Source of the DNA: a virus
Lineage: Duplodnaviria > Caudoviricetes
DNA: 41,548 bases
Direction: 5' to 3' (one strand)
IMG/VR virus record: IMGVR_UViG_3300044771_000029
Location: 1-41,548 of that record
Within the stretch, counting starts at the first letter, position 1. Every line of letters starts with the position of its first letter. The notes beneath the pieces are model-generated. The model saw only the letters and a list, made by a program, of their open reading frames with translations. It did not search any database and had not been told where the DNA came from. Both the position numbers and the translations under genes were made by a program. Of the stretch, positions 1 to 41,548 are shown piece by piece.

Positions 1-31
1 ACTGCTCTTTTGCTGATCGTGCATTTGACAT
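1..31 (-). CDS. 5' fragment of a second copy of the 129-aa DGR target gene (runs off the left edge)
   Basis: Bases 1-99 are identical to 419-517 (offset 418), including the ATG at 29-31 and the AGGAGG RBS. Confidence 0.85.
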   Translation of the reverse strand, partial: MSNARSAKEQ

Positions 32-59
32 GTTCGAACCTCCTGAAATAACTGAATGA

Positions 60-449
60 TTAAATTTCTAAACTGCGGACGAGCACGCCGCTAAGCTTGT
101 TGTACTTGCCATTGGTGCCCTGAATGCCATAGTTGAAGTACTGACACCAAGCGTCGTAAGCGTGAGAGGCGGACTGCTCACACGACCAAAATACGCCACT
201 TTTGAAGCGTTCCTGAGAGCGCAGATTGACGCGAATCAGACCGAGTTCGCGCAGGGATGCTGAGCGGTAGCCGTGTTTCTTGGCGCAATCGATGACCTGT
301 TGAAAGGTGGAGTTTTCAACCTTGATGCGCGACACGCACAGATGAGAATCTGCCGCTCCGTTATCTCCCAGCAAGATTCCGGCATAGTCCTCATCGGGAC
401 GCATGTTGTCTTTCAAAAACTGCTCTTTTGCTGATCGTGCATTTGACAT
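60..449 (-). CDS. DGR target protein A, DUF1566/C-type-lectin-like, with C-terminal variable region
   Basis: C-terminal motif FWSCEQ..AW.QYF..G.Q....K......VR is typical of DUF1566-type targets. The 3' ~115 bp is shared with two other genes. Confidence 0.85.
   Translation of the reverse strand: MSNARSAKEQFLKDNMRPDEDYAGILLGDNGAADSHLCVSRIKVENSTFQQVIDCAKKHGYRSASLRELGLIRVNLRSQERFKSGVFWSCEQSASHAYDAWCQYFNYGIQGTNGKYNKLSGVLVRSLEI
63..177 (-). repeat. DGR variable repeat VR-A with invariant 3' IMH-like end
   Basis: Aligns without gaps to 481-595 and 41320-41434. Differences are confined to 99-164 and fall almost all at codon positions 1-2 of NNC/NNT codons. Confidence 0.9.
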
Positions 450-477
450 GTTCGAACCTCCTGAAATAACTGAATGA

Positions 478-1089
478 TTAAATTTCTAAACTGCGGACGA
501 GCACGCCGCTAAGCTTGCGGTACTTGCTATTGGTGATCTGAAGGCCACTGTAGAAGTGCTGACACCAAGCGTAGCCAGCGTAAGAGGCGGACTGCGTAGA
601 TGTCCAATAGGCATCCGCATCAAACGCTTCGCTGCCGCCTTGCTGGAATGCCTCTGCAAGCGTCTGTGCAGGGAAATCTGGCGTGTAAGGTGGTGTCGGC
701 ACAATGGCGCTCAGATTGATTCCGGAGCGCATGTAGAGAGAGTTTGTGTCAGTCGTTGGCTTGAGGTTGCGATAGACGATTTCAGCAACGTCTTGCGCAG
801 CCACGCACCAGTCATCCTGTCCCCCTGCGCGGAAGTCGAGTGCGAACTGAGCCAGTGGGCTACCCGCTGCGGCCATCGACAGGGTATTTGCCATGCTGTC
901 GTGTACGGACAGCGCACCTTCGACGCTCTTGTAGTTGGTATTCCAGCACATCGGATCATGGCGACTCTCAGCCTTTGACGGGACGATGATGGCAAAGGTT
1001 TTTACGTTGGCTTGATAGCGCCCGGCATAGAACCCTCCGCCCATGGCAGTTCCGAGGATTGTTGGTATTTCTGCGACTGATGATTTCAT
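478..1089 (-). CDS. DGR target protein B, DUF1566/C-type-lectin-like, 203 aa
   Basis: GGFYAG N-terminus and YWTSTQ..AW.QHF..G.Q...K......VR C-terminus. It shares only the VR with target A. Confidence 0.85.
   Translation of the reverse strand: MKSSVAEIPTILGTAMGGGFYAGRYQANVKTFAIIVPSKAESRHDPMCWNTNYKSVEGALSVHDSMANTLSMAAAGSPLAQFALDFRAGGQDDWCVAAQDVAEIVYRNLKPTTDTNSLYMRSGINLSAIVPTPPYTPDFPAQTLAEAFQQGGSEAFDADAYWTSTQSASYAGYAWCQHFYSGLQITNSKYRKLSGVLVRSLEI
481..595 (-). repeat. DGR variable repeat VR-B
   Basis: Gap-free alignment to VR-A and VR-C, with variable codons at 517-582. Confidence 0.9.
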
Positions 1090-5501: not shown

Positions 5502-5998
5502 ACGTTCCCCGCCTTCTTCAACCCGTGGCGCTTGATGATGTACTGGAACAGGTCGCCGCCGTTCTGGAAGAAGCTGTGCGGCTCTTGGCGAGTTTCGAAG
5601 CACAGGCGAATCACGTTCATGCAATGCTCGAAGTTGACGCCATCCAGCGACCACAAATCATCGACCAGCCCCACCTTCACAACCCGGCTGTTGTAGAGAG
5701 ACACCAACACCTTGGCGATCACCGTCGAGCCGCTGCCATATTCCCGCATGGCGTAATTGACCAGATATTCCAGGCTGTCCTGCCACAGTTTGATGTCGTC
5801 CTTGCGCAACGCCTGCGCCTTCTCGTAGGTGTCAGAATGCATCCAGGCGTGCAGCTTCTTCACTTCCGGCTCCGAAAGCGTCATCTTTACCTCGATCCTG
5901 GCCTTCGGATCGGTATCGCGCTCCAGTGCTTCGATGCCTTTCATCACCACCTCAAGAGTTGGTGTAGGGATTTCCATGTCCAGAGTTGCTTGGTTCAT
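5498..5998 (-). CDS. Conserved hypothetical phage protein
   Basis: Coupled ORF. The SG..IA..L.SLYN...LD......C...EPH.FF.NG pattern recalls a mobile-element protein family. Confidence 0.7.
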   Translation of the reverse strand: MNQATLDMEIPTPTLEVVMKGIEALERDTDPKARIEVKMTLSEPEVKKLHAWMHSDTYEKAQALRKDDIKLWQDSLEYLVNYAMREYGSGSTVIAKVLVSLYNSRVVKVGLVDDLWSLDGVNFEHCMNVIRLCFETRQEPHSFFQNGGDLFQYIIKRHGLKKAGNV

Positions 5999-6690
5999 GC
6001 CCCCACCCTCCCCTCAAACCGCTTCCGCAGATCCGCAATCCGCACCCTCGGCCTGCCGTTCATAGCGCGGTCGGTGGTCAGCAGCGCGGTATCCATCTCC
6101 TCGCGGTCCACGCGGGTGTAGATCTCGGTGCTGCGGCGGCTCTTCTGCCCGAGGGATACCTGGGCGATGCGCATCGGGTCTGCCGCCTGGCTCTCGCGGA
6201 TGATGTTCTTGGCGTGGGTATGGCGCAGCCAGTGGGGGGAAACACCTTCCGGCAGGCCCGCCAGCTTGGCCCAGTGCGCCACGCGCAGCTCGAATGCCCG
6301 CACCGTCATGGCAGACCAGCCGCGCTCTTTGCTCTTGCGCGATACGATCAGCGCCTCGTCCATCTCGGCCCCTTCGCGCAACGACAGCAGATCCAGCAGC
6401 GCGGCGCGGATGGTGGTGGTGACCAGTTGAGAAAGATCGGCCACCTCTCCCTTGCGATGCTCCTTGGGGATGAAGAAGTAGTTCGTGTCCAGCGCGGAAA
6501 CAGCATCGCCAACCGATGTCTTGAGCAGCTCGCCGATGCGGAAGCCACCCGCGATCAACAAGCAGCACACGGCATGGTCGCGCTTGGCGATGAGGTCGGA
6601 AAACTGGCGGATCGTGCCCAGGAACTTCGGCTGTTCACTCTTGGTGAGGAAGCGCCGGAAGACGCCCTCGGGTTCGTTCTGATGTTGCAT
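5995..6690 (-). CDS. Short tyrosine recombinase (catalytic domain only)
   Basis: RD.A...LL...GFRIGE, HWLRH and LGQ...STEIY motifs. AAAGGAG RBS before the ATG at 6688-6690. Confidence 0.88.
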   Translation of the reverse strand: MQHQNEPEGVFRRFLTKSEQPKFLGTIRQFSDLIAKRDHAVCCLLIAGGFRIGELLKTSVGDAVSALDTNYFFIPKEHRKGEVADLSQLVTTTIRAALLDLLSLREGAEMDEALIVSRKSKERGWSAMTVRAFELRVAHWAKLAGLPEGVSPHWLRHTHAKNIIRESQAADPMRIAQVSLGQKSRRSTEIYTRVDREEMDTALLTTDRAMNGRPRVRIADLRKRFEGRVGA

Positions 6691-6733
6691 CGCTCGCTCC
6701 TTTTTCAAATGCCCATCCGGGCGGGTAAAACAG

Positions 6734-7345: not shown

Positions 7346-7524
7346 GGCTGCTTCCCTCCGGATAAAAAGCGGGCTTCCAACTCGGGGCGAAAAAACGTGA
7401 TAAAGGCGCGGCTGATGCTCAAGGCTTCGCCGGGCTGCAGGTTGTCGGTCAGGGTGGTGATGCCGTGCTTGGCGACGGCGGCCGGTACATGCCGTTCGCC
7501 CTGATCCTGTCGAAGGGTGATCAT
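7303..7524 (-). CDS. Hypothetical protein with REP-derived N-terminus
   Basis: ATGA-coupled to the CII-like gene. It overlaps the next ORF by 43 bp. Confidence 0.45.
   Translation of the reverse strand: MITLRQDQGERHVPAAVAKHGITTLTDNLQPGEALSISRAFITFFRPELEARFLSGGKQPCANNNSSPFRSGK
7492..7517. repeat. REP-like palindrome family A, copy 1
   Basis: CCGTTCGCCCTGATCCTGTCGAAGGG, related to 19254-19279, 20505-20530 and 28943-28968. Confidence 0.8.
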
Positions 7525-14688: not shown

Positions 14689-16217
14689 CTCGCCCCCAAC
14701 ATCTGCGCCTGCCTACTGCGAGGATCGATCAGGATCACATCCGAGTTGCTGATGCTGTCCTTGATCTGCGGGATGATCGTGCTCTCGACCCATTCGTTCG
14801 ACAGCAGATTGCCCTGGTTGTAGATATTGACGATGACCGGTTGCTGCTGTTGTTGGCTTGTGGGGGTGACTGGCACGCCAGGAGAGGTGGATTGGCTGGG
14901 AACGCCACCGCTATAGGTGGAGATATTTCCCCCGCCGCCGAACTGCGTGCTGTTGATCGCCTGTATTTGAGCGCCTACATAGACGGCTGCAAGTGCAGCT
15001 TCAGCGATTGCCCCATAATAACTACCCCAACTCATACCATCAGCGAAAGCAGCAGTAATTGCCTGATACCCCTGTACCGTCGCCTTCGCCAGCGATGCCG
15101 CCTTGTTAATCTCGAACGCAGCCCGACTCTTGGTCGCAAGACCTGCCGTCAACTGCTGCGCCATGGTCATGGCGTCAACGTAGTCACCTTGACGCAACAA
15201 CTTGGAGAAGTTGGCTACGCCAAGATCGGCCCGCATCTTGCGCTGGCGCTCTGCCTCTGCCTTTTCCTCGGCCGCCGAATTCAGGCGCTCCACCTCGGCA
15301 TTGGCGATTGCTACACGGTCAATGCGCGCATCTTGATATTCCTGCTCAAGCGCTGCATTCTTTCCATAAACCCGCTTCGCATCTTCATGTTCCTTCTCCA
15401 TCGCCTGCAAATCGAATTGCAGCTTCATGCGAATGCGCTCCACATCCGTCGCATCCGCCATCGCTGCCATCTCGTGCAGCTTGTTGTACTTGGCCTGTTC
15501 GCGCGCAATGGTCGCGTCGATGCGGTCCTTCTCGGCTGTGTCCTTCTTGGCACCGGGTGCTTGCAAGATCTGAATGTTGCGGATCTCGTTGTCGATATCA
15601 GCCTGCTTCTGCCCGCGAATTTTTGCCTGCATCATTATCTGGTCAGCAAGTTCTTTGTTTCGGCTCGGGTCGGCTTTGCGCTGCTGGTCGTACTTGGCGA
15701 TCAACTGATCAACCCAGGAAATCTCCCCCTTCAGCGCCTCAATGCGGTCTTGCTTTGCCTGTATCTGTTCCTGCGTGTTCTTGTGCTTCGAGCGGTTGGC
15801 CGAGTCTTCGGCCTTCTTCAGCTCGTCCGCCACCTTGTTGGCAGCCTTCTCTGCGCTGTCGCCCCACTCCATCCACGCCCACACCCCGGCAGCCACAACG
15901 CCGGTCACCGCGCCCACGGCAATACCGATAGGGCCGAAGCCCATGGCGATGCGCGCCAGCGTGCCGGGGATGCGGTTGGTGTCTCCGCTGACCACTTCTT
16001 TACCGAGGGTGACGAACTGCTGCGCCGTGCGGTTGGTGACGTTGATGACCTTCTCGCTGCTCTCCACGGCGGCGCTGTATTTCTTGTCCAGATTGGCGGT
16101 GGCGGTGCCGAGTTTGTCCATCTCTGCCGCGGCTTTTTGTGCGCCGGGAGCTACACCATCCGCATTCGCGGTGATGTCGATTTTTACGTTAGAGGTGGAA
16201 TCGGAAGAATCACTCAT
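14685..16217 (-). CDS. Tail tape measure protein (short, 510 aa)
   Basis: Ala-rich helical/coiled-coil sequence with hydrophobic Gly/Ala segments and N-terminal VKIDITA. Confidence 0.85.
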   Translation of the reverse strand: MSDSSDSTSNVKIDITANADGVAPGAQKAAAEMDKLGTATANLDKKYSAAVESSEKVINVTNRTAQQFVTLGKEVVSGDTNRIPGTLARIAMGFGPIGIAVGAVTGVVAAGVWAWMEWGDSAEKAANKVADELKKAEDSANRSKHKNTQEQIQAKQDRIEALKGEISWVDQLIAKYDQQRKADPSRNKELADQIMMQAKIRGQKQADIDNEIRNIQILQAPGAKKDTAEKDRIDATIAREQAKYNKLHEMAAMADATDVERIRMKLQFDLQAMEKEHEDAKRVYGKNAALEQEYQDARIDRVAIANAEVERLNSAAEEKAEAERQRKMRADLGVANFSKLLRQGDYVDAMTMAQQLTAGLATKSRAAFEINKAASLAKATVQGYQAITAAFADGMSWGSYYGAIAEAALAAVYVGAQIQAINSTQFGGGGNISTYSGGVPSQSTSPGVPVTPTSQQQQQPVIVNIYNQGNLLSNEWVESTIIPQIKDSISNSDVILIDPRSRQAQMLGAR

Positions 16218-16220
16218 GCC

Positions 16221-16266
16221 CGCACAATAGCCGTGCGGTCAAGCCAAAAACAGGCTGGAAAGTGGC
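16221..16266 (-). promoter_or_regulatory. Putative activator-dependent late promoter 1
   Basis: 30-bp motif GCCACTTTCCAGCCTGTTTTTGGCTTGACC, then TATTGT six bases before the tape-measure ATG. Confidence 0.75.
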
Positions 16267-16295
16267 GTTAAGGGTTTACGTTTTTCACGTCTGTT

Positions 16296-19227: not shown

Positions 19228-19253
19228 GGTGGTTCCTTTCTTGTTGGCGTTCA

Positions 19254-19279
19254 CCCTTCGACAGGCTCAGGGCGAACGG
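19254..19279. repeat. REP-like palindrome family A, copy 2 (inverted)
   Basis: CCCTTCGACAGGCTCAGGGCGAACGG. Confidence 0.8.
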
Positions 19280-19285
19280 CTGAAT

Positions 19286-20504: not shown

Positions 20505-20530
20505 CCGTTCGTCCTGAGCCTGTCGAAGGG
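20505..20530. repeat. REP-like palindrome family A, copy 3
   Basis: CCGTTCGTCCTGAGCCTGTCGAAGGG. Confidence 0.8.
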
Positions 20531-26253: not shown

Positions 26254-26360
26254 ACGTTCTTCCCTTTTGAAAATTGCCGTCAGCAGCGGGTGGAGCGAGC
26301 GAGCTGTGTGCCCGCTGCATCGGGCTGGCCTTTTCAGGTTGGGAGAGAGTTTCGTGGATT

Positions 26361-26390
26361 GGTCAAGCCAAAAACAGGCTGGAAAGTGGC
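26361..26390 (-). promoter_or_regulatory. Putative activator-dependent late promoter 2
   Basis: Exact copy of the 30-bp motif, between a terminator and the capsid gene. Confidence 0.75.
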
Positions 26391-26406
26391 GCGGCGGGTG
26401 GGTGAT

Positions 26407-28918: not shown

Positions 28919-29192
28919 GTCCATTCCCTTCGTTTGTAATATCCGTTCGTGCTGAGCCTGTCGAAGCATGAATGACAACCGCCCCCACGCTGCGCCAGCC
29001 ATCAATCAGCCCAACCTCATGCAATTCCTTGATCACTGGAACCAGCTCCGGCATGTGCTTCAACACCACCGCCTTGTTCTCTGCCACCCTCTCCGATTCC
29101 GCAGCGCTTAACACCTTCAGCGGCCGCTTCACCGGCGGCGGCGGTCGCTTCCACAGCGCACCAGGCACAAACAGTTCCACATCCCTGCTCAC
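28905..29192 (-). CDS. Hypothetical protein, 95 aa, with an in-frame REP near the C-terminus
   Basis: GTGA-coupled to terL. Residues ASTGSART are encoded by the family A repeat. Confidence 0.7.
   Translation of the reverse strand: MSRDVELFVPGALWKRPPPPVKRPLKVLSAAESERVAENKAVVLKHMPELVPVIKELHEVGLIDGWRSVGAVVIHASTGSARTDITNEGNGHGTA
28943..28968. repeat. REP-like palindrome family A, copy 4
   Basis: CCGTTCGTGCTGAGCCTGTCGAAGCA, with compensatory stem changes (TGCT/AGCA instead of CCCT/AGGG). Confidence 0.75.
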
Positions 29193-30990: not shown

Positions 30991-31937
30991 GCCCCACCAC
31001 CCTGCTGATACTCAATCAGCTTAGGATCATGCTCAGTCAACTTGTTCGCACGCTGCACCTTGTCCGCCATCCCGGCCAGCAGCTCCACAGTGCGCTGGCG
31101 GAACTGGTTCGCCGCCTCCTGCTCCTGGCTATCCTGCTCCAGCCTGCCGAAAGCATCCTCCTCCGCCTCGATCACCTTCTGCGTCATACCCATATCCGAA
31201 AGCGTAAGCCCGGCGCGGCTCAGCAGCTCAGCCAAAGGCTTGAACAGAGGATTAGCCTCCATACTGGTGCGCAGTATCTTTCGTTCACCCTTCTCGTTGA
31301 TGTATTCAGCGACGCGGATATTCCCTTCCTCATCCTTATCCCACACCACCTGCTCAACCTTCACCCCGTCCGCCACGATGGTCTGGATGATCTGCTGCAC
31401 CAAGGCGAATATCGCCGCCTGTTGGTCAGCATAAATCCCCATGAGATGTTTAGGATTGCGCTGCTCGAAAGCCGCATGATGCAACATGAACAGTTCGGTC
31501 TTCTTCACGCACGCAGACTGCGAAGCGCAGTGCACCCGGTCTACGTCACACCCGTTGCAAAATGGATACCCGTCCGGTTTCGCCGGGAAATACGTAGCCG
31601 TCCGCGCGTTCAGCCCATGTTTCATGGCATTGAACCGCGTCCGCAGTGATTCTTCCTTTGTTGGGTGTCCTTCCAGATTGGCAGCCGTCGCCGCCTTGCC
31701 TGCCTCAGTCTTCGGCCCGGTCGCCTTCGTCCAAGCCTTCATCGCGTTCCGTTCCCAATAAACCTGCTCGCACTCCGTGCCGCAGCTCAGGCAGTTCGCG
31801 AAATACTGGAACGGGTGATGCTCCTGCTCAAGCGCCTCCACCACCCGCCCAGGCTCCGCCTTGAACGAACGGCAGCAGCTCGGCTGCTTGCAGTGGAATG
31901 TGATCTCTGTGAGGGGTTTGGAGCGATCTTGTGCCAT
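30987..31937 (-). CDS. Terminase small subunit-like protein with Cys clusters
   Basis: Upstream of terL. TGPKT.AGK...NAMKHGL motif and CxxC pairs. Confidence 0.65.
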   Translation of the reverse strand: MAQDRSKPLTEITFHCKQPSCCRSFKAEPGRVVEALEQEHHPFQYFANCLSCGTECEQVYWERNAMKAWTKATGPKTEAGKAATAANLEGHPTKEESLRTRFNAMKHGLNARTATYFPAKPDGYPFCNGCDVDRVHCASQSACVKKTELFMLHHAAFEQRNPKHLMGIYADQQAAIFALVQQIIQTIVADGVKVEQVVWDKDEEGNIRVAEYINEKGERKILRTSMEANPLFKPLAELLSRAGLTLSDMGMTQKVIEAEEDAFGRLEQDSQEQEAANQFRQRTVELLAGMADKVQRANKLTEHDPKLIEYQQGGGA

Positions 31938-31940
31938 TGC

Positions 31941-31986
31941 CGCACAGTAGCGGTGCGGTCAAGTCAAAAACAGGCTGGAAAGTGGC
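31941..31986 (-). promoter_or_regulatory. Putative activator-dependent late promoter 3
   Basis: 30-bp motif with one mismatch, then TACTGT six bases before the ATG at 31937. Confidence 0.75.
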
Positions 31987-31987
31987 T

Positions 31988-32191
31988 TTAAATCAGGGAT
32001 GGTTCTTGAATACGACTGGCGATCAAGTCGCCATGAAGGTCGGAAATTTTGTGGGGCATTTCACTGCCAAATGCATAGACAGTACCGTCATCAACCTCGA
32101 TAACTCGCCACTTTCCTTCTGGAAAGTCTGCTGGCTCACATAGTTCTAACGAACCTCTGTACCAGTAAAACCCGTTTGGGACATTATTCAT
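31988..32191 (-). CDS. Hypothetical protein, 67 aa
   Basis: ATG two bases after the integrase stop. P.GFYWY N-terminus. Confidence 0.65.
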   Translation of the reverse strand: MNNVPNGFYWYRGSLELCEPADFPEGKWRVIEVDDGTVYAFGSEMPHKISDLHGDLIASRIQEPSLI

Positions 32192-32192
32192 C

Positions 32193-33809
32193 TCAAGCTA
32201 CCTTTCTGATGAAACGGTCAGGGAAGGGGATTATAATGAATTTGGTTCGTAGCAAGAACCGGTCGGGGAGCCAGTTTTCTTTACTATGAACCGTGTCGAC
32301 ACCGGCACGGTTCATTACTTTTGAGCGGTCGTAGTAGATCACCGCTCCGTCGGCGTTCACTTCCACCTTTTCGATGAAGGTGGAGAAGAATTGGCGCAGG
32401 CGTTTTGCGTCGTCCGTGGTCGCCACGATCTCCCTCATCAGTTCGGTCATCTGTTGGATCTCGATATCACCTATCGAGACATCCGGCATCTCTTCTTCCT
32501 CAAGCCGCACCAGCTTTTCCTCGAACTGGTCTCGCTGCGCCTTGAGTTCGCGCATTCTGATGGTCAGGTCTCCCAGGTTGGGGGCGTCTTTGCCGTGCAG
32601 CTCCAGCACGGAATACAGGTTCTGCAGCTTGGTTTCGGTGTCGCGCAGGTCTTTAACGGTATCGGCGCGGCGGGCTGCGCGCTCTTTTATCCACTTTCCG
32701 GTGAGTTCATGCATGTCGTTGATCATTTCGGTGATGGATTCCTTGGAAAGGATCCGGCTCATCACGGAATCGACCAGCCATGCGTCGAACTCTGGCGCGG
32801 ATATGCGTCTGGAGCTGCATCCGGTGCCTTTCTGGCTGGCGCTGCAGTTGTAGTAGTGGTAATAGCGCCCGCGCCCCTTGGCGCTCTCGATCTGCAGGGA
32901 TGCGCCGCATTTTCCGCACTTGAGCAGGCCGGTGAACACGAATCCGCTGTGCGGGGACCCTCCGCCGTCGCATGGCGCGCGGCCTTCGATCAGTTTTTGC
33001 GCTTCCATGAATATCTCCTCGTCGATAATTGGCTCGTGGCTCTTGGTGATGATCCATTCCTCGCGCGGGCGCGCGGCGCCGGTTGTGTTGTTTGTCCGGT
33101 TGAATACGACGTGCCCGGTGTAGATCATGTTCCGCAGCAGGTTGAGGATGGTGCTTTTGCTCCACTTCCTGCCCCTGTTCAGCCGTCCTTGCAGGTTCAA
33201 TACCGTGGCGATGGTCTTTGCACCGTCACCGCCGATGTAGATCGCGAAAATATCGCGCACCAGCACCACCTCTGACTCGTTGATCTCCAGGCGCTTGCGC
33301 TTGCCGTCCAGCACAGTGGAAAAGCCAAGCGGGACGCGCCCGCCGTTGAAGTGCCCATCGCTGGCGTTCTTGATCATGCTGCGCAGGGTGTCGCTGCTCA
33401 CCTGGCGGCTGTAATGCTCGTCGAAAATCTCCATCATCGACTCCAGCATCCAGCCGGAGTCGGTGCGGTTGTCTAAATCCACACTAACGTAGACCACTCG
33501 CGTGCCTGATTTCTCCAGCTCGCGCTTGTATAGGGCGGCGTCCAGCTTGTTGCGGGCGAAGCGGGATGTACTCCAGCAGATGAAGAACTGCACTCCATGG
33601 GCCTTGCAGTAGCGCACAGCGTCCTGGAAGGCCGGTCGCTCGTCGGTGCGGCCTGATATCCCCGCATCGGTGAACACGCGCAGCACGTCGGCGTCCAGCA
33701 GCAGCGCCTTGCTATGCCCGCGCTCGATCTGGCTATCGACCGGAAGCCCGTCGTCGGCTTGGCGCTGGGTTGAAACCCGCGCGTAGATGATTGCTGTTGG
33801 TTTGGACAT
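32193..33809 (-). CDS. Large serine recombinase (integrase)
   Basis: YARVST..Q catalytic motif, SG....RP, SRFARN, recombinase domain, Zn ribbon (CGKCG...YYNC....C) and coiled coil. Confidence 0.95.
   Translation of the reverse strand: MSKPTAIIYARVSTQRQADDGLPVDSQIERGHSKALLLDADVLRVFTDAGISGRTDERPAFQDAVRYCKAHGVQFFICWSTSRFARNKLDAALYKRELEKSGTRVVYVSVDLDNRTDSGWMLESMMEIFDEHYSRQVSSDTLRSMIKNASDGHFNGGRVPLGFSTVLDGKRKRLEINESEVVLVRDIFAIYIGGDGAKTIATVLNLQGRLNRGRKWSKSTILNLLRNMIYTGHVVFNRTNNTTGAARPREEWIITKSHEPIIDEEIFMEAQKLIEGRAPCDGGGSPHSGFVFTGLLKCGKCGASLQIESAKGRGRYYHYYNCSASQKGTGCSSRRISAPEFDAWLVDSVMSRILSKESITEMINDMHELTGKWIKERAARRADTVKDLRDTETKLQNLYSVLELHGKDAPNLGDLTIRMRELKAQRDQFEEKLVRLEEEEMPDVSIGDIEIQQMTELMREIVATTDDAKRLRQFFSTFIEKVEVNADGAVIYYDRSKVMNRAGVDTVHSKENWLPDRFLLRTKFIIIPFPDRFIRKVA
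32261..32273 (+). other. Candidate attP core resembling a tRNA 3' end (tRNA-Asn-like)
   Basis: GGTCGGGGAGCCA ending in CCA, with GGTTCG at 32244-32249 but no full cloverleaf. It lies inside the integrase 3' end (WLPD). Confidence 0.55.
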
Positions 33810-34566: not shown

Positions 34567-35568
34567 TCAGCCCTTCTTGCCCAACTGCTTTAAGAGGTCG
34601 CTCACTGGCGTGTGCATGTTGGCCAGAGGATTGGCGCGGTCCATCTCTCTGGTCAGCTTGCGCCTGGCTGTATGGTTGTAGATCGCCGTGCTCTTGGCGT
34701 CGGCATGCCCCATAAGCTGCTGTGCATGCAGCATGTGCACGTCGTTCTCAATGAGCTCAGTGCCAAACAGGTGGCGCATTGCGTGTGGGTGCAGCTGCTC
34801 TTGGGATACACCCTGCCGTCTGCCATATCGTGAAACCATGTCCCAGATCGATCTACGCCCCATCCGGCGCCGCTCTCCTCTGTACTCATCAATCGTGCAG
34901 GTGCGGTTCATCGTGCTGATGAACAGCACCTGGTCACCGTCTGGCAGGGTGCGATCGATGCCAGCCAAGTCCTCATGCCCCATATAGATGCGCAGCAGCA
35001 TGTCTGCCTGAATCGGAATTGGGATCAAGCGCTCCTTGTTCCCCTTCTCCAGCACCTTCAGGGTGAGGCGCACCTTTCCGTCCAGCTCGTCCTCGATCAC
35101 GTTGCTCACATTCAGCATGGAAAGGCCTGATGCCCGCAGGCCGCAGCCAATCAGCAGCCCCAGCATCGCCGCGTCGCGCACTCCCTCAAATGTGGTGAAG
35201 TCCGGCGCCCACATCATCTTCTCCGCGCTGGCCATGGTCATCACGCGCGGGATCTTCCGCCCGGTCTTTGGGTAAGGGACGCCGGCCGCCGGGTTACCCT
35301 TGATGTGCTTATTGTTCAGCAGCCAGCTGTAGAACTCGCGGATGGCGGCTACGTGTGGTCGACGGCTCAGCGGATCCGTGAGGCCGCGCTTGTGCAGCCA
35401 GATGCCGGAGAACACCACCAGATCGTCGTGAGTGGCCTGCAGCGGATCGCGGTCGCCGAAGTACTCGACCAGGCGATTCAGCGCCAGCCGGTACACCTGC
35501 ACTGTTCGCTCTGATCGTCCGGCGTTGTGTTGCTTGAATTCCAGAAAACTATTGATCAAATCGTCCAT
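34567..35568 (-). CDS. XerC/D-like tyrosine recombinase
   Basis: N-terminal core-binding domain (S..T...Y) plus GLRASG, KGNKER, HAMRH, MGH and IY motifs. Confidence 0.92.
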   Translation of the reverse strand: MDDLINSFLEFKQHNAGRSERTVQVYRLALNRLVEYFGDRDPLQATHDDLVVFSGIWLHKRGLTDPLSRRPHVAAIREFYSWLLNNKHIKGNPAAGVPYPKTGRKIPRVMTMASAEKMMWAPDFTTFEGVRDAAMLGLLIGCGLRASGLSMLNVSNVIEDELDGKVRLTLKVLEKGNKERLIPIPIQADMLLRIYMGHEDLAGIDRTLPDGDQVLFISTMNRTCTIDEYRGERRRMGRRSIWDMVSRYGRRQGVSQEQLHPHAMRHLFGTELIENDVHMLHAQQLMGHADAKSTAIYNHTARRKLTREMDRANPLANMHTPVSDLLKQLGKKG

Positions 35569-35595
35569 TTTTTCACCCATACACCTTTCCACAAC

Positions 35596-35862
35596 TTGCA
35601 CCCTTGCACCCAAATCGGCTGAAACCCGCGCCGTTATTGGGTTTGACCTTGGGTGCAAGTGATTTGGTCACCTGCACCCAATCACTTGCACCCTGAAACA
35701 AACATCCAATAAAACAACATATTGGAGGGTGCAAGATGGTTTTGAGTAAAAGCCAACTTGCACCCATCTTGCACCCGAGGCACCCAACTTGCACCCTCAC
35801 TTGCACCCAAATATATATAAATAAAATCAATAATTTAATATCATTTGGGTGCAAGGGTGCAA
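35596..35862. repeat. Putative replication origin: TTGCACCC octamer array around an AT-rich tract
   Basis: Eleven perfect octamers (7 direct, 4 inverted) and 2 variants. AT-rich core at 35809-35846. Confidence 0.8.
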
Positions 35863-36090
35863 GTGCTGGAGAGATATTAGGGTTTGGCCTCAAAAACAGG
35901 CCAAAAAAAGTGGAAAAAGACGCGGCGACCCCCTCCACCCGCTTAAATGCATGCCGCGCCTTCGGCGCGGGAGAGATGCTTCCGCATGGGTTTTGGGTGC
36001 GCCGGTGGGTATTACTGTGTGAGCTTCCTGGGGATAGGAAAAGGTACCAAGGTAGTATGAAAAACGGCTTAAATCGCATTGTGGTGGTCA

Positions 36091-40100: not shown

Positions 40101-40208
40101 CTTCTTTACGCGCTTTGATGATGCTTGGCTTTCGATGTAATCGGCGAGATCAACTGCACGTTTCACATTTTGAAATGTGTCAGAGGTATTGTTGGCAGCC
40201 TGCTGCAT
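37128..40208 (-). CDS. Primase-helicase replication protein (Zn finger, TOPRIM, P-loop NTPase)
   Basis: C..H...F.C..CG..GDVF zinc finger, EGEND and FDYD TOPRIM motifs, GGSGSGKT Walker A. Confidence 0.9.
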   Translation of the reverse strand: MQQAANNTSDTFQNVKRAVDLADYIESQASSKRVKKGSSVFFEPAPCCSHNECFHLWKDDTAFKCQSCGVVGDVFNYAEDVQGMDKGAALRYVADWAGVTLPDLHKTASPDAKPKPENRLQTVLEAAIKHYQSSLAERADVMEWLTAAKPAGRGHKVTTIQTMEIGCSDGKLAEALGKQGISLDDVKAAGLYVESKKTPGEWRDFFVPGLVIFPHRLPSGEVAHFTLKDPKKKLDYQLRAENRMDGFLWGNQKAIRSETVILLEGENDLASMFDAGVKNALASLGQLSDEQMRWMDTQASGKTVITWFDYDTKWGDKGQPPAGMKYTRKMYQRLLRNPDCKVMVASGLMEPGEDPDDWIQKDMESAPKRIQAALKKAMNPLLWELRVMPADVREDADSCLRYLTEIEFFEYLSLLEELQRDAVIVEMQKLGFSRDAVMSGVKESYGLLEQLTAVLDSYNGSGKSDGYKKTCSVAVWDYFRQRGRFFVSGDRLCLFYRHTIYTIGDNVPFKALMHREAGLNIKQEVSGFILEELKALTYSRGDKLSEFGWISLLADETGPVLYLNLKDAANRILKVSCDGVDIAENGTNPHNVLLAESSQMKSFRYDPDVNIGQAMREMKALVLDSMACDPSQRYLVLAWALSAFLMPLTSAKALMKLEGGSGSGKTSAAEVLSLLLYGENMVGRSSTASDYSMAATEPLIIKDNLETDDLHRNALNFLLLAATGATNIKREQGTQSGVVTEKINCLVAITAIEPFSKPELINRAFIIDFHKRYQRMDFVKDENARVLLAKRDDILSSWLLLLSEKVLPSLGDRGKIIQYIREHHKDFSKDRVSEYMALLVLIARALLKYMPLTNEMKLDAGDRAPEYVLLDAWVKYQNEHSRLIEQGTNAVLQLIDGLRRVFLIDYSRKEAEAVVADGLFGHNQKKLWCELMGVVVWREEVPGETNPLKTRQTFYFEASTADLLSMLNRYGREYGVKVPFTNAKQLGVRVTNEMDTLKRAGWEMEQIKVVHGNRITRWRWTDGGEE

Positions 40209-40291
40209 ATTGTTTGTCCCTGTTGATTCGTTTTCAAACCCACTCGGCCTCGCCCAGCCGGTTGGTGCTGTTCTGTTATTTGTTTTACTGA

Positions 40292-40981
40292 TTAGTATTC
40301 AGCGGAAAAACTTTGGGCCAATCGATCATCAAAAGCATCATCTGACTTATCCCGCAGGAAAGTCTCGATATAGCTGTCCGTTTCTGATTCCAGCAGGATA
40401 TGCGTGGCGCAGGTCCAAGCCTTTGCCTCATCCTTTGCTTCCGGAGTCATCTTCTCGTGTGAATCGATGGATGCGAGGTGTGGGCATGCCCGGCATTCCT
40501 TACCCAGAGCGCACCTCAAGTGATTGTCAGGAAGTTGAACACCCGGGCGTGGATCGTGCCCGCACATCTTGAAGCTACTGCTCAGCTGCTTTTTCCGCTC
40601 ATACTCAAATAGCATGATCATTCGCGGCACCTCATCTGCAACCCGCTTGGCGGTGTACATCCATCCAACCGATGGCATCCGATCCTTTCGCTCCGCATCG
40701 CTGTATGCATTGATAGCGACATGCCATTCATGGTCGCCACATCCGCTGTGATAAGTCCCCCCCTGGTACCGCTCCAACTTGAAACCGCGCATATACTCAG
40801 ATCCTTCCTTGCGCTTGTCGTTGGCCAATCCAAGCTGGCTGGAGTATCGGCGCAGCTCAACACCAGCATCGAGGCGGTCCCGTTGCTCTTGGGTAAATTC
40901 ATCCCTATCTAAAGCTGACCTGCGCCACAGTTGTTCATGGTCGATTCGATCTGCCAATTCTTTCAATTGCTCTGGTTTCAT
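40292..40981 (-). CDS. Hypothetical protein with Cys/His-rich C-terminus
   Basis: AGGAG RBS. L.C.LG..C..C..L and WTC..H motifs. Confidence 0.75.
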   Translation of the reverse strand: MKPEQLKELADRIDHEQLWRRSALDRDEFTQEQRDRLDAGVELRRYSSQLGLANDKRKEGSEYMRGFKLERYQGGTYHSGCGDHEWHVAINAYSDAERKDRMPSVGWMYTAKRVADEVPRMIMLFEYERKKQLSSSFKMCGHDPRPGVQLPDNHLRCALGKECRACPHLASIDSHEKMTPEAKDEAKAWTCATHILLESETDSYIETFLRDKSDDAFDDRLAQSFSAEY

Positions 40982-41289
40982 TTCGTTCTCCTACCGGTGA
41001 TCTCAACTGCTTTTGCATACTGCTTGGTTGAGATAGCCCGACTGTCAAATGAGAGGCGAAGCAGCAGATTCGCTACCTCAAGGCGTTCGAGCAGTTCGTC
41101 GAGATAGGGAGTCTTGTCACGCGCACAATTCGCGCGGAACACGAGCATCACAATCTCGACTGACTCACTGGAGATTTTCACGCCAACGGCCTGCTTGAAG
41201 TCACGAGGCATGTTCTTGACCAACTCAGTGACAACCCTGAGCAGGTCATAGGCCATTTTGTAAATCGGCAAAGTGGTGTGGAGTGCCAT
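40978..41289 (-). CDS. avd: DGR accessory variability determinant (Avd-like four-helix bundle), apparently C-terminally truncated
   Basis: LPIYK.AYDL......MPRDFK..G...I..FRAN...LLRL..D..IS..QY pattern, directly downstream of a VR gene. The usual final G.....W helix is missing. Confidence 0.82.
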   Translation of the reverse strand: MALHTTLPIYKMAYDLLRVVTELVKNMPRDFKQAVGVKISSESVEIVMLVFRANCARDKTPYLDELLERLEVANLLLRLSFDSRAISTKQYAKAVEITGRRTK

Positions 41290-41313
41290 GCTGATGAAAA
41301 CCAAATAATTAAA

Positions 41314-41548
41314 TTACAGAATTTCTAAACTGCGGACGAGCACGCCGCTAAGCTTGCGGTGCTTGAGAATGGTGCCCTGAATGCCAGTGCCGAAGTACTG
41401 ATACCACGCGTAGAAAGCGTAAGAGGCGGACTGCTCACACGACCAAAATACGCCACTTTTGAAGCGTTCCTGAGAGCGCAGATTGACGCGAATCAGACCG
41501 AGTTCGCGCAGGGATGCTGAGCGGTAGCCGTGTTTCTTGGCGCAATCG
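41314..41548 (-). CDS. DGR target protein C, 3' part (copy of target A with a different VR)
   Basis: 41422-41548 is identical to 165-291. The VR translates YAFYAWYQYFGTGIQGTILKHR and the protein ends SLEIL*. Confidence 0.88.
   Translation of the reverse strand, partial: DCAKKHGYRSASLRELGLIRVNLRSQERFKSGVFWSCEQSASYAFYAWYQYFGTGIQGTILKHRKLSGVLVRSLEIL
41320..41434 (-). repeat. DGR variable repeat VR-C
   Basis: Gap-free alignment to VR-A at offset 41257, with variable codons at 41356-41421. Confidence 0.9.

What the first reader, a model, noticed from the sequence alone, without database searches (positions are those of the whole stretch)
63..595. Three-target DGR with an adenine-mutagenesis footprint but no template repeat or reverse transcriptase
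Seen: three gene ends (63-177, 481-595, 41320-41434) align without gaps. Over 22 codons they read HAYDAWCQYFNYGIQGTNGKYN, YAGYAWCQHFYSGLQITNSKYR and YAFYAWYQYFGTGIQGTILKHR. Thirteen amino-acid positions vary, always at codon positions 1-2 with a fixed third C/T; the only other change is a silent GCT/GCG. Known: this is the signature of DGR retrohoming from an AAC/AAT-rich template, and an avd-like gene follows the last target. Seen: none of the three copies is AAY-rich, and I found no fourth copy and no RT ORF. Inference: this is either a recently frozen DGR, or a non-autonomous target array diversified in trans by another element's TR and RT. The reconstructed template is roughly AAC GCT AAC AAC GCA TGG AAT CAG AAC TTC AAC AAT GGC AWT CAG AAC AMC AAT AAC AAG AAC AAC.
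Basis: partly seen in the sequence, partly recalled or inferred. Interest (0 to 1): 0.88.

Follow-up and report, generated by a model that had tools for sequence, protein, structure and literature searches.

The report
Phage DGR targets, engine deleted
Three small lectin-fold phage genes carry the scars of a targeted-mutation retroelement (DGR), but a break inside its helper gene marks the loss of its template and reverse transcriptase, so they are most likely frozen leftovers of a known, often-broken system.

Summary
In detail: three gene ends differ at 20 sites, 19 at codon positions 1-2 and 17 at family-template adenines (p=5e-8); the 41.5-kb phage record has no template repeat (TR) or reverse transcriptase (RT). 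The gap between the window ends leaves no room for them: a separately assembled contig fills it with gene-B sequence, giving the circle A-B-B'-avd. Relatives have TR and RT right behind avd, so a deletion or replacement likely removed both. Three targets is ordinary: B is likely a tandem copy of B', and 57 of 81 related loci have two or more targets. Loss recurs (7 of 109 related loci; cultured phages Medea1 and Aurca01), and the scan has noted similar orphans on other DNA. No matching TR was found elsewhere and this phage shows one allele per target, so trans action is unsupported here. One lead keeps it open: seven engine-less Pseudomonas phage loci share one junction yet carry five variable-region alleles. 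Verdict: fossil of a known DGR family.

The parts
478..1089 (-). Target gene A, 203 aa, Lcl_C/DUF1566-type C-type lectin domain
   Evidence: Pfam PF07603 E 3.3e-5, below the cut-off; 382 homologues at E<=1e-40, most listed ones with PF07603
481..595 (-). Variable region of A with its constant 3' end
60..449 (-). Target gene B, 129 aa; body identical to B', 3' tail identical to that of A (likely tandem duplicate)
   Evidence: AlphaFold model pLDDT 95.7; best PDB match Legionella Lcl C-terminal domain 8q4e, E 1.9e-4, TM 0.61, then C-type lectins; tails compared
63..177 (-). Variable region of B
1..31 (-). Start of gene B' (continues across the window ends)
   Evidence: window 1-99 equals 419-517; bridged by a 346-nt contig in run X1
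41314..41548 (-). 3' part of target gene B'
   Evidence: last 127 nt equal 165-291; sister protein P0002, 130 aa, has the same C-terminus
41320..41434 (-). Variable region of B'
165..517 (-). 353-nt repeat unit (constant VR end, intergenic spacer, B body) present twice in the circle; 127 nt of the second copy (equal to 292-418) are what the record lacks
   Evidence: depth 29.5 against 15.7 and 13.5 for the two B variable regions
40978..41289 (-). Truncated avd, 103 aa: 99 native residues plus 4 foreign ones; lacks the last 19 residues, five of them invariant
   Evidence: bAvd PF22296 and DivGenRetAVD hits below their cut-offs; sisters P0003 and P0125 are 118 aa; G102, Q104, G107, W108, R109 invariant in 52 full-length homologues
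40993..40994 (-). Junction where the sister avd continues and this genome switches to the ribosome-binding region of the next gene
   Evidence: sister contig in run X2 leaves the window at 40994 and stays in the avd frame; an 11,070-nt contig of run X1 crosses the junction with 0 differences
40292..40981 (-). 229-aa gene of unknown function where TR and RT lie in relatives; not an RT or a recognised HNH nuclease
   Evidence: no Pfam, NCBIfam or PHROG hit, no usable Atlas hit; one 62% relative without avd

Best explanation
This is the remnant of a phage diversity-generating retroelement (targets A, B, B', then avd) that has no template repeat or reverse transcriptase and a cut avd gene, likely because one recent deletion or replacement starting in avd codon 99 removed them, so its three lectin-fold targets are probably frozen at their last mutated state. 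Shown: the adenine-type footprint, the absence of TR and RT, closure of the circle by gene-B sequence, the avd truncation against sisters, and the family order targets-avd-spacer-TR-RT. Inferred: (1) the ancestor was A-B'-avd-TR-RT; (2) slippage or unequal crossing-over between the identical 36-nt 3' ends of the A and B' variable regions made B, which has the body of B' and the tail of A; (3) retrohoming before the loss, or crossing-over between two sibling genomes, gave B and B' 15 differences with identical bodies; (4) about 1.4 kb or more (avd end to RT end as in L003) was then lost. The targets are small and sit among early and replication genes, so they are probably non-virion binding proteins; their ligand is unknown.
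For: Footprint. No TR or RT. Circle closed: one 346-nt contig joins 41548 to the constant 3' end, and the only loose ends in run X1 lead to gene A and to avd. Truncation: sisters P0003 and P0125 differ from the window Avd at one residue each over 99 and then continue to 118 aa. The X2 contig diverges at 40994; its 12 best-supported listed avd differences are all at third codon positions. The lost part is the second half of the last predicted helix (H88-113) of a fold matching Bordetella Avd 4dwl at TM 0.71-0.76 with weak E-values. Family order: 99 of 109 distinct avd loci with >=1.9 kb downstream cover >=350 of 423 RT residues right behind avd; 7 of 109 lack the TR motif and most or part of the RT. 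Single alleles: B-body depth 29.5 is matched by 15.7+13.5 of the two B alleles, and the A variable region lies unbroken in a 15,775-nt contig. Bordetella RT needs Avd for activity (PMC6182149, passages).
Against: The sister's TR and RT were never seen directly: the X2 avd contig ends about 207 nt past the avd stop, near where TRs start in relatives, and no TR piece was laid in X2 either. Only contigs at about 19x were available, which drop rare alleles, and X1 may be the source of the window, so 'frozen' is not proven. Seven Pseudomonas phage loci with one shared engine-less junction carry five VR alleles that differ almost only at template adenines, so engine-less arrays in this family do not all stay with one allele.
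Confidence: 0.84

Rival explanations
1. Non-autonomous array: the engine is lost, but the targets are still rewritten in trans by the TR RNA, RT and Avd of a co-infecting or resident sibling phage, or swap alleles with such siblings by recombination.
For: The constant 3' and 5' ends of all three VRs are intact. A sister lineage with full Avd and other VR alleles exists. In Pseudomonas phages Medea1, Aurca01 and five IMG/VR records, one junction follows target 2, the next 450 nt differ by 0-10 bases, yet VR2 has 5 alleles among 7 loci, with 22 of 23 variable sites at adenines of the Cruim01 TR; no RT in any of the 7 records, 4 of which are <90% complete.
Against: No TR with this constant end or 5' motif in IMG/VR, JGI metagenomes or GTDB genomes, and none laid in run X1. 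One allele per target in X1. The Pseudomonas junction is the edge of a NUMOD4-HNH nuclease gene and different target bodies are joined to it, so repeated invasion of active DGRs or recombination explains the alleles without trans action. Two host genomes with broken loci hold no compatible second DGR (incomplete MAGs). Wu et al. found remote targets (>100 kb) almost only in non-phage DGRs (PMC5758913, passages).
Confidence: 0.1
2. Ordinary cis DGR whose TR and RT lie in the unassembled gap, or a misassembly at avd.
For: The record is classed linear and 96% complete, and both ends stop in a repeat.
Against: A 346-nt contig bridges the ends with B sequence only, and an 11,070-nt contig crosses the avd junction with 0 differences. 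In the family TR and RT follow avd, not the targets.
Confidence: 0.03
3. B and B' are two population alleles of one gene laid at both contig ends, not a tandem pair.
For: Their bodies are identical, and B-body depth is only about 1.55 times the flanks (29.5 against 18.5-19.1).
Against: B and B' have different 3' tails (A-type and avd-type). The B' VR must be in every genome yet has depth 13.5, so local single-copy depth is about 14-16 and 29.5 means two copies. Near-identical tandem targets occur in L043, L074 (95%) and L014 (85%).
Confidence: 0.03

Closest known systems
DGR of Burkholderia phage Magia (MT701587, genes 44-47; PMC7883833) and of Pseudomonas phages Cruim01 (PP179333) and LPPA56 (OR188718)
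   Same: Two small lectin-fold/DUF1566-type targets, then avd, spacer, TR and RT among non-virion genes; Magia Avd 63% identical to the sister Avd
   Different: Here avd is cut at codon 99, TR and RT are absent, and the second target is duplicated
DGR architecture B1 (avd-TR-RT) with CLec2 / category 'd' (DUF1566) targets of Wu et al. 2018 (PMC5758913)
   Same: Gene order of the relatives, C-terminal VR, short DUF1566-only targets, tandem targets (up to eight in Stenotrophomonas) (passages)
   Different: That survey catalogues putatively functional elements with an RT; this locus has none. RT phylogeny was not tested.
Bordetella phage BPP-1 DGR (mtd-avd-TR-brt)
   Same: Adenine-specific footprint, Avd fold (4dwl/8ub7, TM 0.71-0.76), CLec-fold target
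   Different: BPP-1 diversifies a tail-fibre tip and is complete and active; these targets are small genes outside the tail module, and the engine is missing
Engine-less DUF1566 target pairs of Pseudomonas phages Medea1 (NC_074658) and Aurca01 (PP179334)
   Same: Tandem targets with an adenine-only footprint and no TR or RT in the whole record
   Different: There an HNH nuclease gene replaces avd, TR and most of RT; here an avd stub remains and the next gene is not a recognised nuclease

Membership tests
Working DGR (BPP-1 type, architecture B1) | DGR reverse transcriptase gene | tested here: not met
   PF00078 0 of 1 record; family RT 0 of 1 at E<=1; gap filled by B sequence
Working DGR (BPP-1 type, architecture B1) | Template repeat | tested here: not met
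   no TR-like stretch on either strand
Working DGR (BPP-1 type, architecture B1) | Variable region differing at template adenines | tested here: met
   indirect, against family TRs: 17 of 20 variable sites, p=4.6e-8
Working DGR (BPP-1 type, architecture B1) | Intact Avd accessory protein | tested here: not met
   103 aa, five invariant residues lost; sisters 118 aa
Working DGR (BPP-1 type, architecture B1) | Target with C-terminal VR in a C-type lectin fold | tested here: met
   B model matches the Lcl C-terminal domain 8q4e; A has a weak PF07603 hit
Working DGR (BPP-1 type, architecture B1) | Cis homing signals (IMH, hairpin) 3' of the VR | tested here: inconclusive
   a 36-nt constant 3' end is shared by all three VRs; IMH cannot be compared without the TR; no hairpin test was run
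Working DGR (BPP-1 type, architecture B1) | Ongoing VR polymorphism in the population | tested here: inconclusive
   one allele per target in contigs of run X1 at about 19x; contigs drop rare variants
Remote (trans) DGR target | A matching TR and RT elsewhere in the same cell | tested here: inconclusive

The most novel reading that the evidence does not exclude
Engine-less DGR target arrays of this phage family are non-autonomous passengers: the phage drops TR, RT and Avd, keeps an expandable tandem array of lectin-fold targets, and has them rewritten in trans by the DGR of a sibling phage in the same cell, much as non-autonomous transposons borrow a transposase. The five adenine-only alleles behind one shared junction in Pseudomonas phages, with Aurca01 (orphan) and Cruim01 (complete DGR, matching TR) isolated on the same host strain, would make this directly testable.
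Probability: 0.1. Interest if true: 0.62.

Novelty: new member of a known kind. Interest (0 to 1): 0.2.

Why it matters
As found, it is a clean, recent example of a common end state. It shows that this widespread family of phage DGRs gains targets by tandem duplication and loses its engine often (7 of 109 related loci), and that RT-anchored surveys miss such loci. It would matter more if orphan arrays proved to be rewritten between phages, since remote DGR targets are described almost only in non-phage DGRs (PMC5758913). What these small lectin-fold proteins bind stays open, but intact relatives are better material for that question.

Tried and rejected
TR or RT in the gap: rejected. A matching TR elsewhere: 0 matches in three IMG/VR pattern scans, one JGI and one GTDB scan; these need exact matches and may omit near records. 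Fetching the sister contig's DNA failed: the metagenome scan with P0002 confirmed 0 of 152 candidates, so its TR and RT were not seen. No TR piece was laid from run X2, which shows nothing either way. The 229-aa gene and the primase gave one relative each; neither record has avd, so the far end of the deletion is not mapped. The 229-aa gene has no family or fold match. A sequence search of the PDB with Avd found nothing significant. The promoter/terminator scan of 40200-41548 was at chance level. A break hot spot at avd codon 98-99 (window and L022) was considered and dropped: two cases only, and the query favours such loci. Eight literature searches (listings) returned no paper devoted to orphaned phage DGR targets or phage-to-phage trans homing; the library lacks most subscription papers and I opened no supplements, which may list such cases.

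Full report
Setting. The window is a whole virus record of 41,548 bp, classed linear and 96% complete. It encodes portal, head, tail-tube, tape-measure, primase, methylase and three recombinase genes, so it is likely a temperate tailed phage. The finding lies at both ends of the record, on the minus strand.

Observation. Of 20 variable sites, 11, 8 and 1 are at codon positions 1, 2 and 3 (p=0.003). Against 55 distinct family templates of the same register (73 found, 70 in register), 17 of 20 variable sites are template adenines, versus 16 of 85 invariant sites (p=4.6e-8). The 3 exceptions are positions where these distant templates differ. The three VRs differ from each other at 14, 15 and 15 sites, the same as the median of 15 for 72 pairs in intact loci. 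Gene B folds with high confidence into the Lcl/C-type lectin fold. No TR-like stretch and no RT is in the record.

The gap. The last 127 nt of the window equal 165-291 and the first 99 equal 419-517, so both ends stop inside a repeat made of the constant VR end, the spacer and the body of gene B. In run X1, which holds 99% of the sampled words and may be the source of the window, one 346-nt contig spans that repeat and joins the two ends. The only loose ends lead to gene A and to avd. Its depth, 29.5, equals the sum of the two B variable regions (15.7 and 13.5). The circle is therefore A-B-B'-avd, about 41,675 bp, with no room for TR or RT.

The break. The window's Avd is 103 aa. Two sister proteins, P0003 and P0125, differ at one residue each over the first 99 and continue to 118 aa. 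The lost part holds five residues invariant in 52 full-length homologues and the second half of the last predicted helix; the model resembles Bordetella Avd (TM 0.71-0.76, E 0.04-0.1). A contig of run X2 follows the window to 40994 and then goes on in the avd frame, while an 11,070-nt X1 contig crosses the junction without a difference. After the junction the window passes straight to the ribosome-binding region of an unrelated 229-aa gene. Of 135 related avd loci, 122 have at least 1.9 kb downstream and 109 of these are distinct; 99 of 109 have a near-complete RT right behind avd. I infer that a deletion or replacement removed the avd end, spacer, TR and RT, about 1.4 kb or more by the layout of L003. 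The rest of avd has not decayed, so the event looks recent. The sister's own TR and RT were not seen: its contig ends about where TRs begin, no TR piece was laid, and the contig could not be fetched.

Three targets. The family layout is A (about 203 aa), B (about 128 aa), avd, as in phages Magia, Cruim01 and LPPA56 (PMC7883833, passages). By a motif count, 51 of 81 loci have two targets and 6 have three within 3 kb of avd. B has the body of B' but the 3' tail of A, and relatives keep distinct A-type and B'-type tails. That is the expected product of slippage between the identical 3' ends of the two VRs (inferred). Near-identical tandem targets also occur in L043, L074 and L014. In run X2 the B body has depth 27.5 against 6.5 for avd, which suggests about four copies, with at least two alleles seen. 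X2 shares its A allele and one Avd change with the proteins P0275 and P0125, so these are not independent witnesses. Wu et al. report about 15% of DGRs with several targets and up to eight in tandem (PMC5758913, passages).

Loss is common. Ten of the 109 loci cover under 350 of 423 RT residues, and 7 of them lack the TR motif. L033 and L074 share one junction; L085, L014, L033, L074 and L036 keep C-terminal RT pieces; L022 and L086 keep none. L022 is cut to 103 aa like this one. Cultured phages Medea1 and Aurca01 carry two such targets and no RT in the whole record. Earlier notes of this scan describe similar orphans on other DNA; I did not check those loci.

Trans action. Against it: five pattern scans found no matching TR; the closest of 122 family TRs has 16 non-adenine conflicts; X1 shows one allele per target; two host MAGs with broken loci have no compatible second element. 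For it: Medea1, Aurca01 and five IMG/VR records share one junction after target 2, their next 450 nt differ by 0-10 bases, yet VR2 has five alleles among seven loci, with 22 of 23 variable sites at adenines of the Cruim01 TR; VR1 differs in all three loci that have it, 20 of 20 sites at adenines. However, the junction is the edge of a NUMOD4-HNH nuclease gene and different target bodies are joined to it, so repeated invasion of active elements, or recombination in the constant VR end, explains this equally well. No such series exists for the window's phage.

Verdict. It worked like a BPP-1-type DGR of architecture B1 with DUF1566-type targets, but fails the membership tests for RT, TR and intact Avd, so it is a remnant, not a working DGR. 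The best reading is a recently frozen locus (0.84); trans or recombinational renewal is 0.10. Papers: passages only of PMC5758913, PMC8144416, PMC6182149 and PMC7883833; the others as search listings; no supplements opened. Roux et al. note that RT-anchored mining misses remote targets and that activity is under-detected at 20-50x (PMC8144416, passages), which bears on the single-allele result here.

Noticed in passing
L143:2489-3620, L144:2492-3623, L147-L151; template in L146:3033-3131: Seven Pseudomonas phage loci (Medea1, Aurca01, five IMG/VR records) share one junction where a NUMOD4-HNH gene replaces avd, TR and most of RT, yet carry five VR2 alleles differing almost only at adenines of the Cruim01 TR. 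Aurca01 and Cruim01 were isolated on the same host strain. Trans homing, repeated nuclease invasion or recombination remain unresolved.
   Followed up: partly
window 165-517 (run X2): A sister strain shows B-body depth about four times that of avd, suggesting an expandable tandem array of about four B copies with different VR alleles.
   Followed up: partly
L085:1200-3754: A Gallionella MAG locus has target ends of a similar type (same WSCEQ motif before the B variable region) and has also lost TR and the RT N-terminus; many avd relatives are in Gallionellaceae and other Betaproteobacteria, a weak hint at the host.
   Followed up: partly
L083:4786-8001: A related phage (primase 83% identical, record 100% complete) has other small genes and no avd between the same flanking genes, so the DGR is optional cargo in this phage group.
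   Followed up: yes
window 7491-7520, 19243-19280, 20505-20530, 28943-28979: A 26-37-nt element occurs four times in both orientations, resembling a bacterial REP-type palindrome (resemblance recalled, not tested).
   Followed up: no
window 16215-16271, 26339-26395, 31935-31991: A 57-nt repeat with a shared core occurs three times, 5.6-10 kb apart, between late genes; possibly a late promoter or regulator site.
   Followed up: no
window 5995-6708, 32193-33809, 34567-35658, 35575-35883: Three recombinases (two tyrosine-type, one large serine-type) and a 41-nt inverted repeat next to one of them.
   Followed up: no
window 40292-40981: The 229-aa gene at the junction is Cys/His-rich in its C-terminal half, has one 62% relative in IMG/VR and no family or fold match.
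   Followed up: partly
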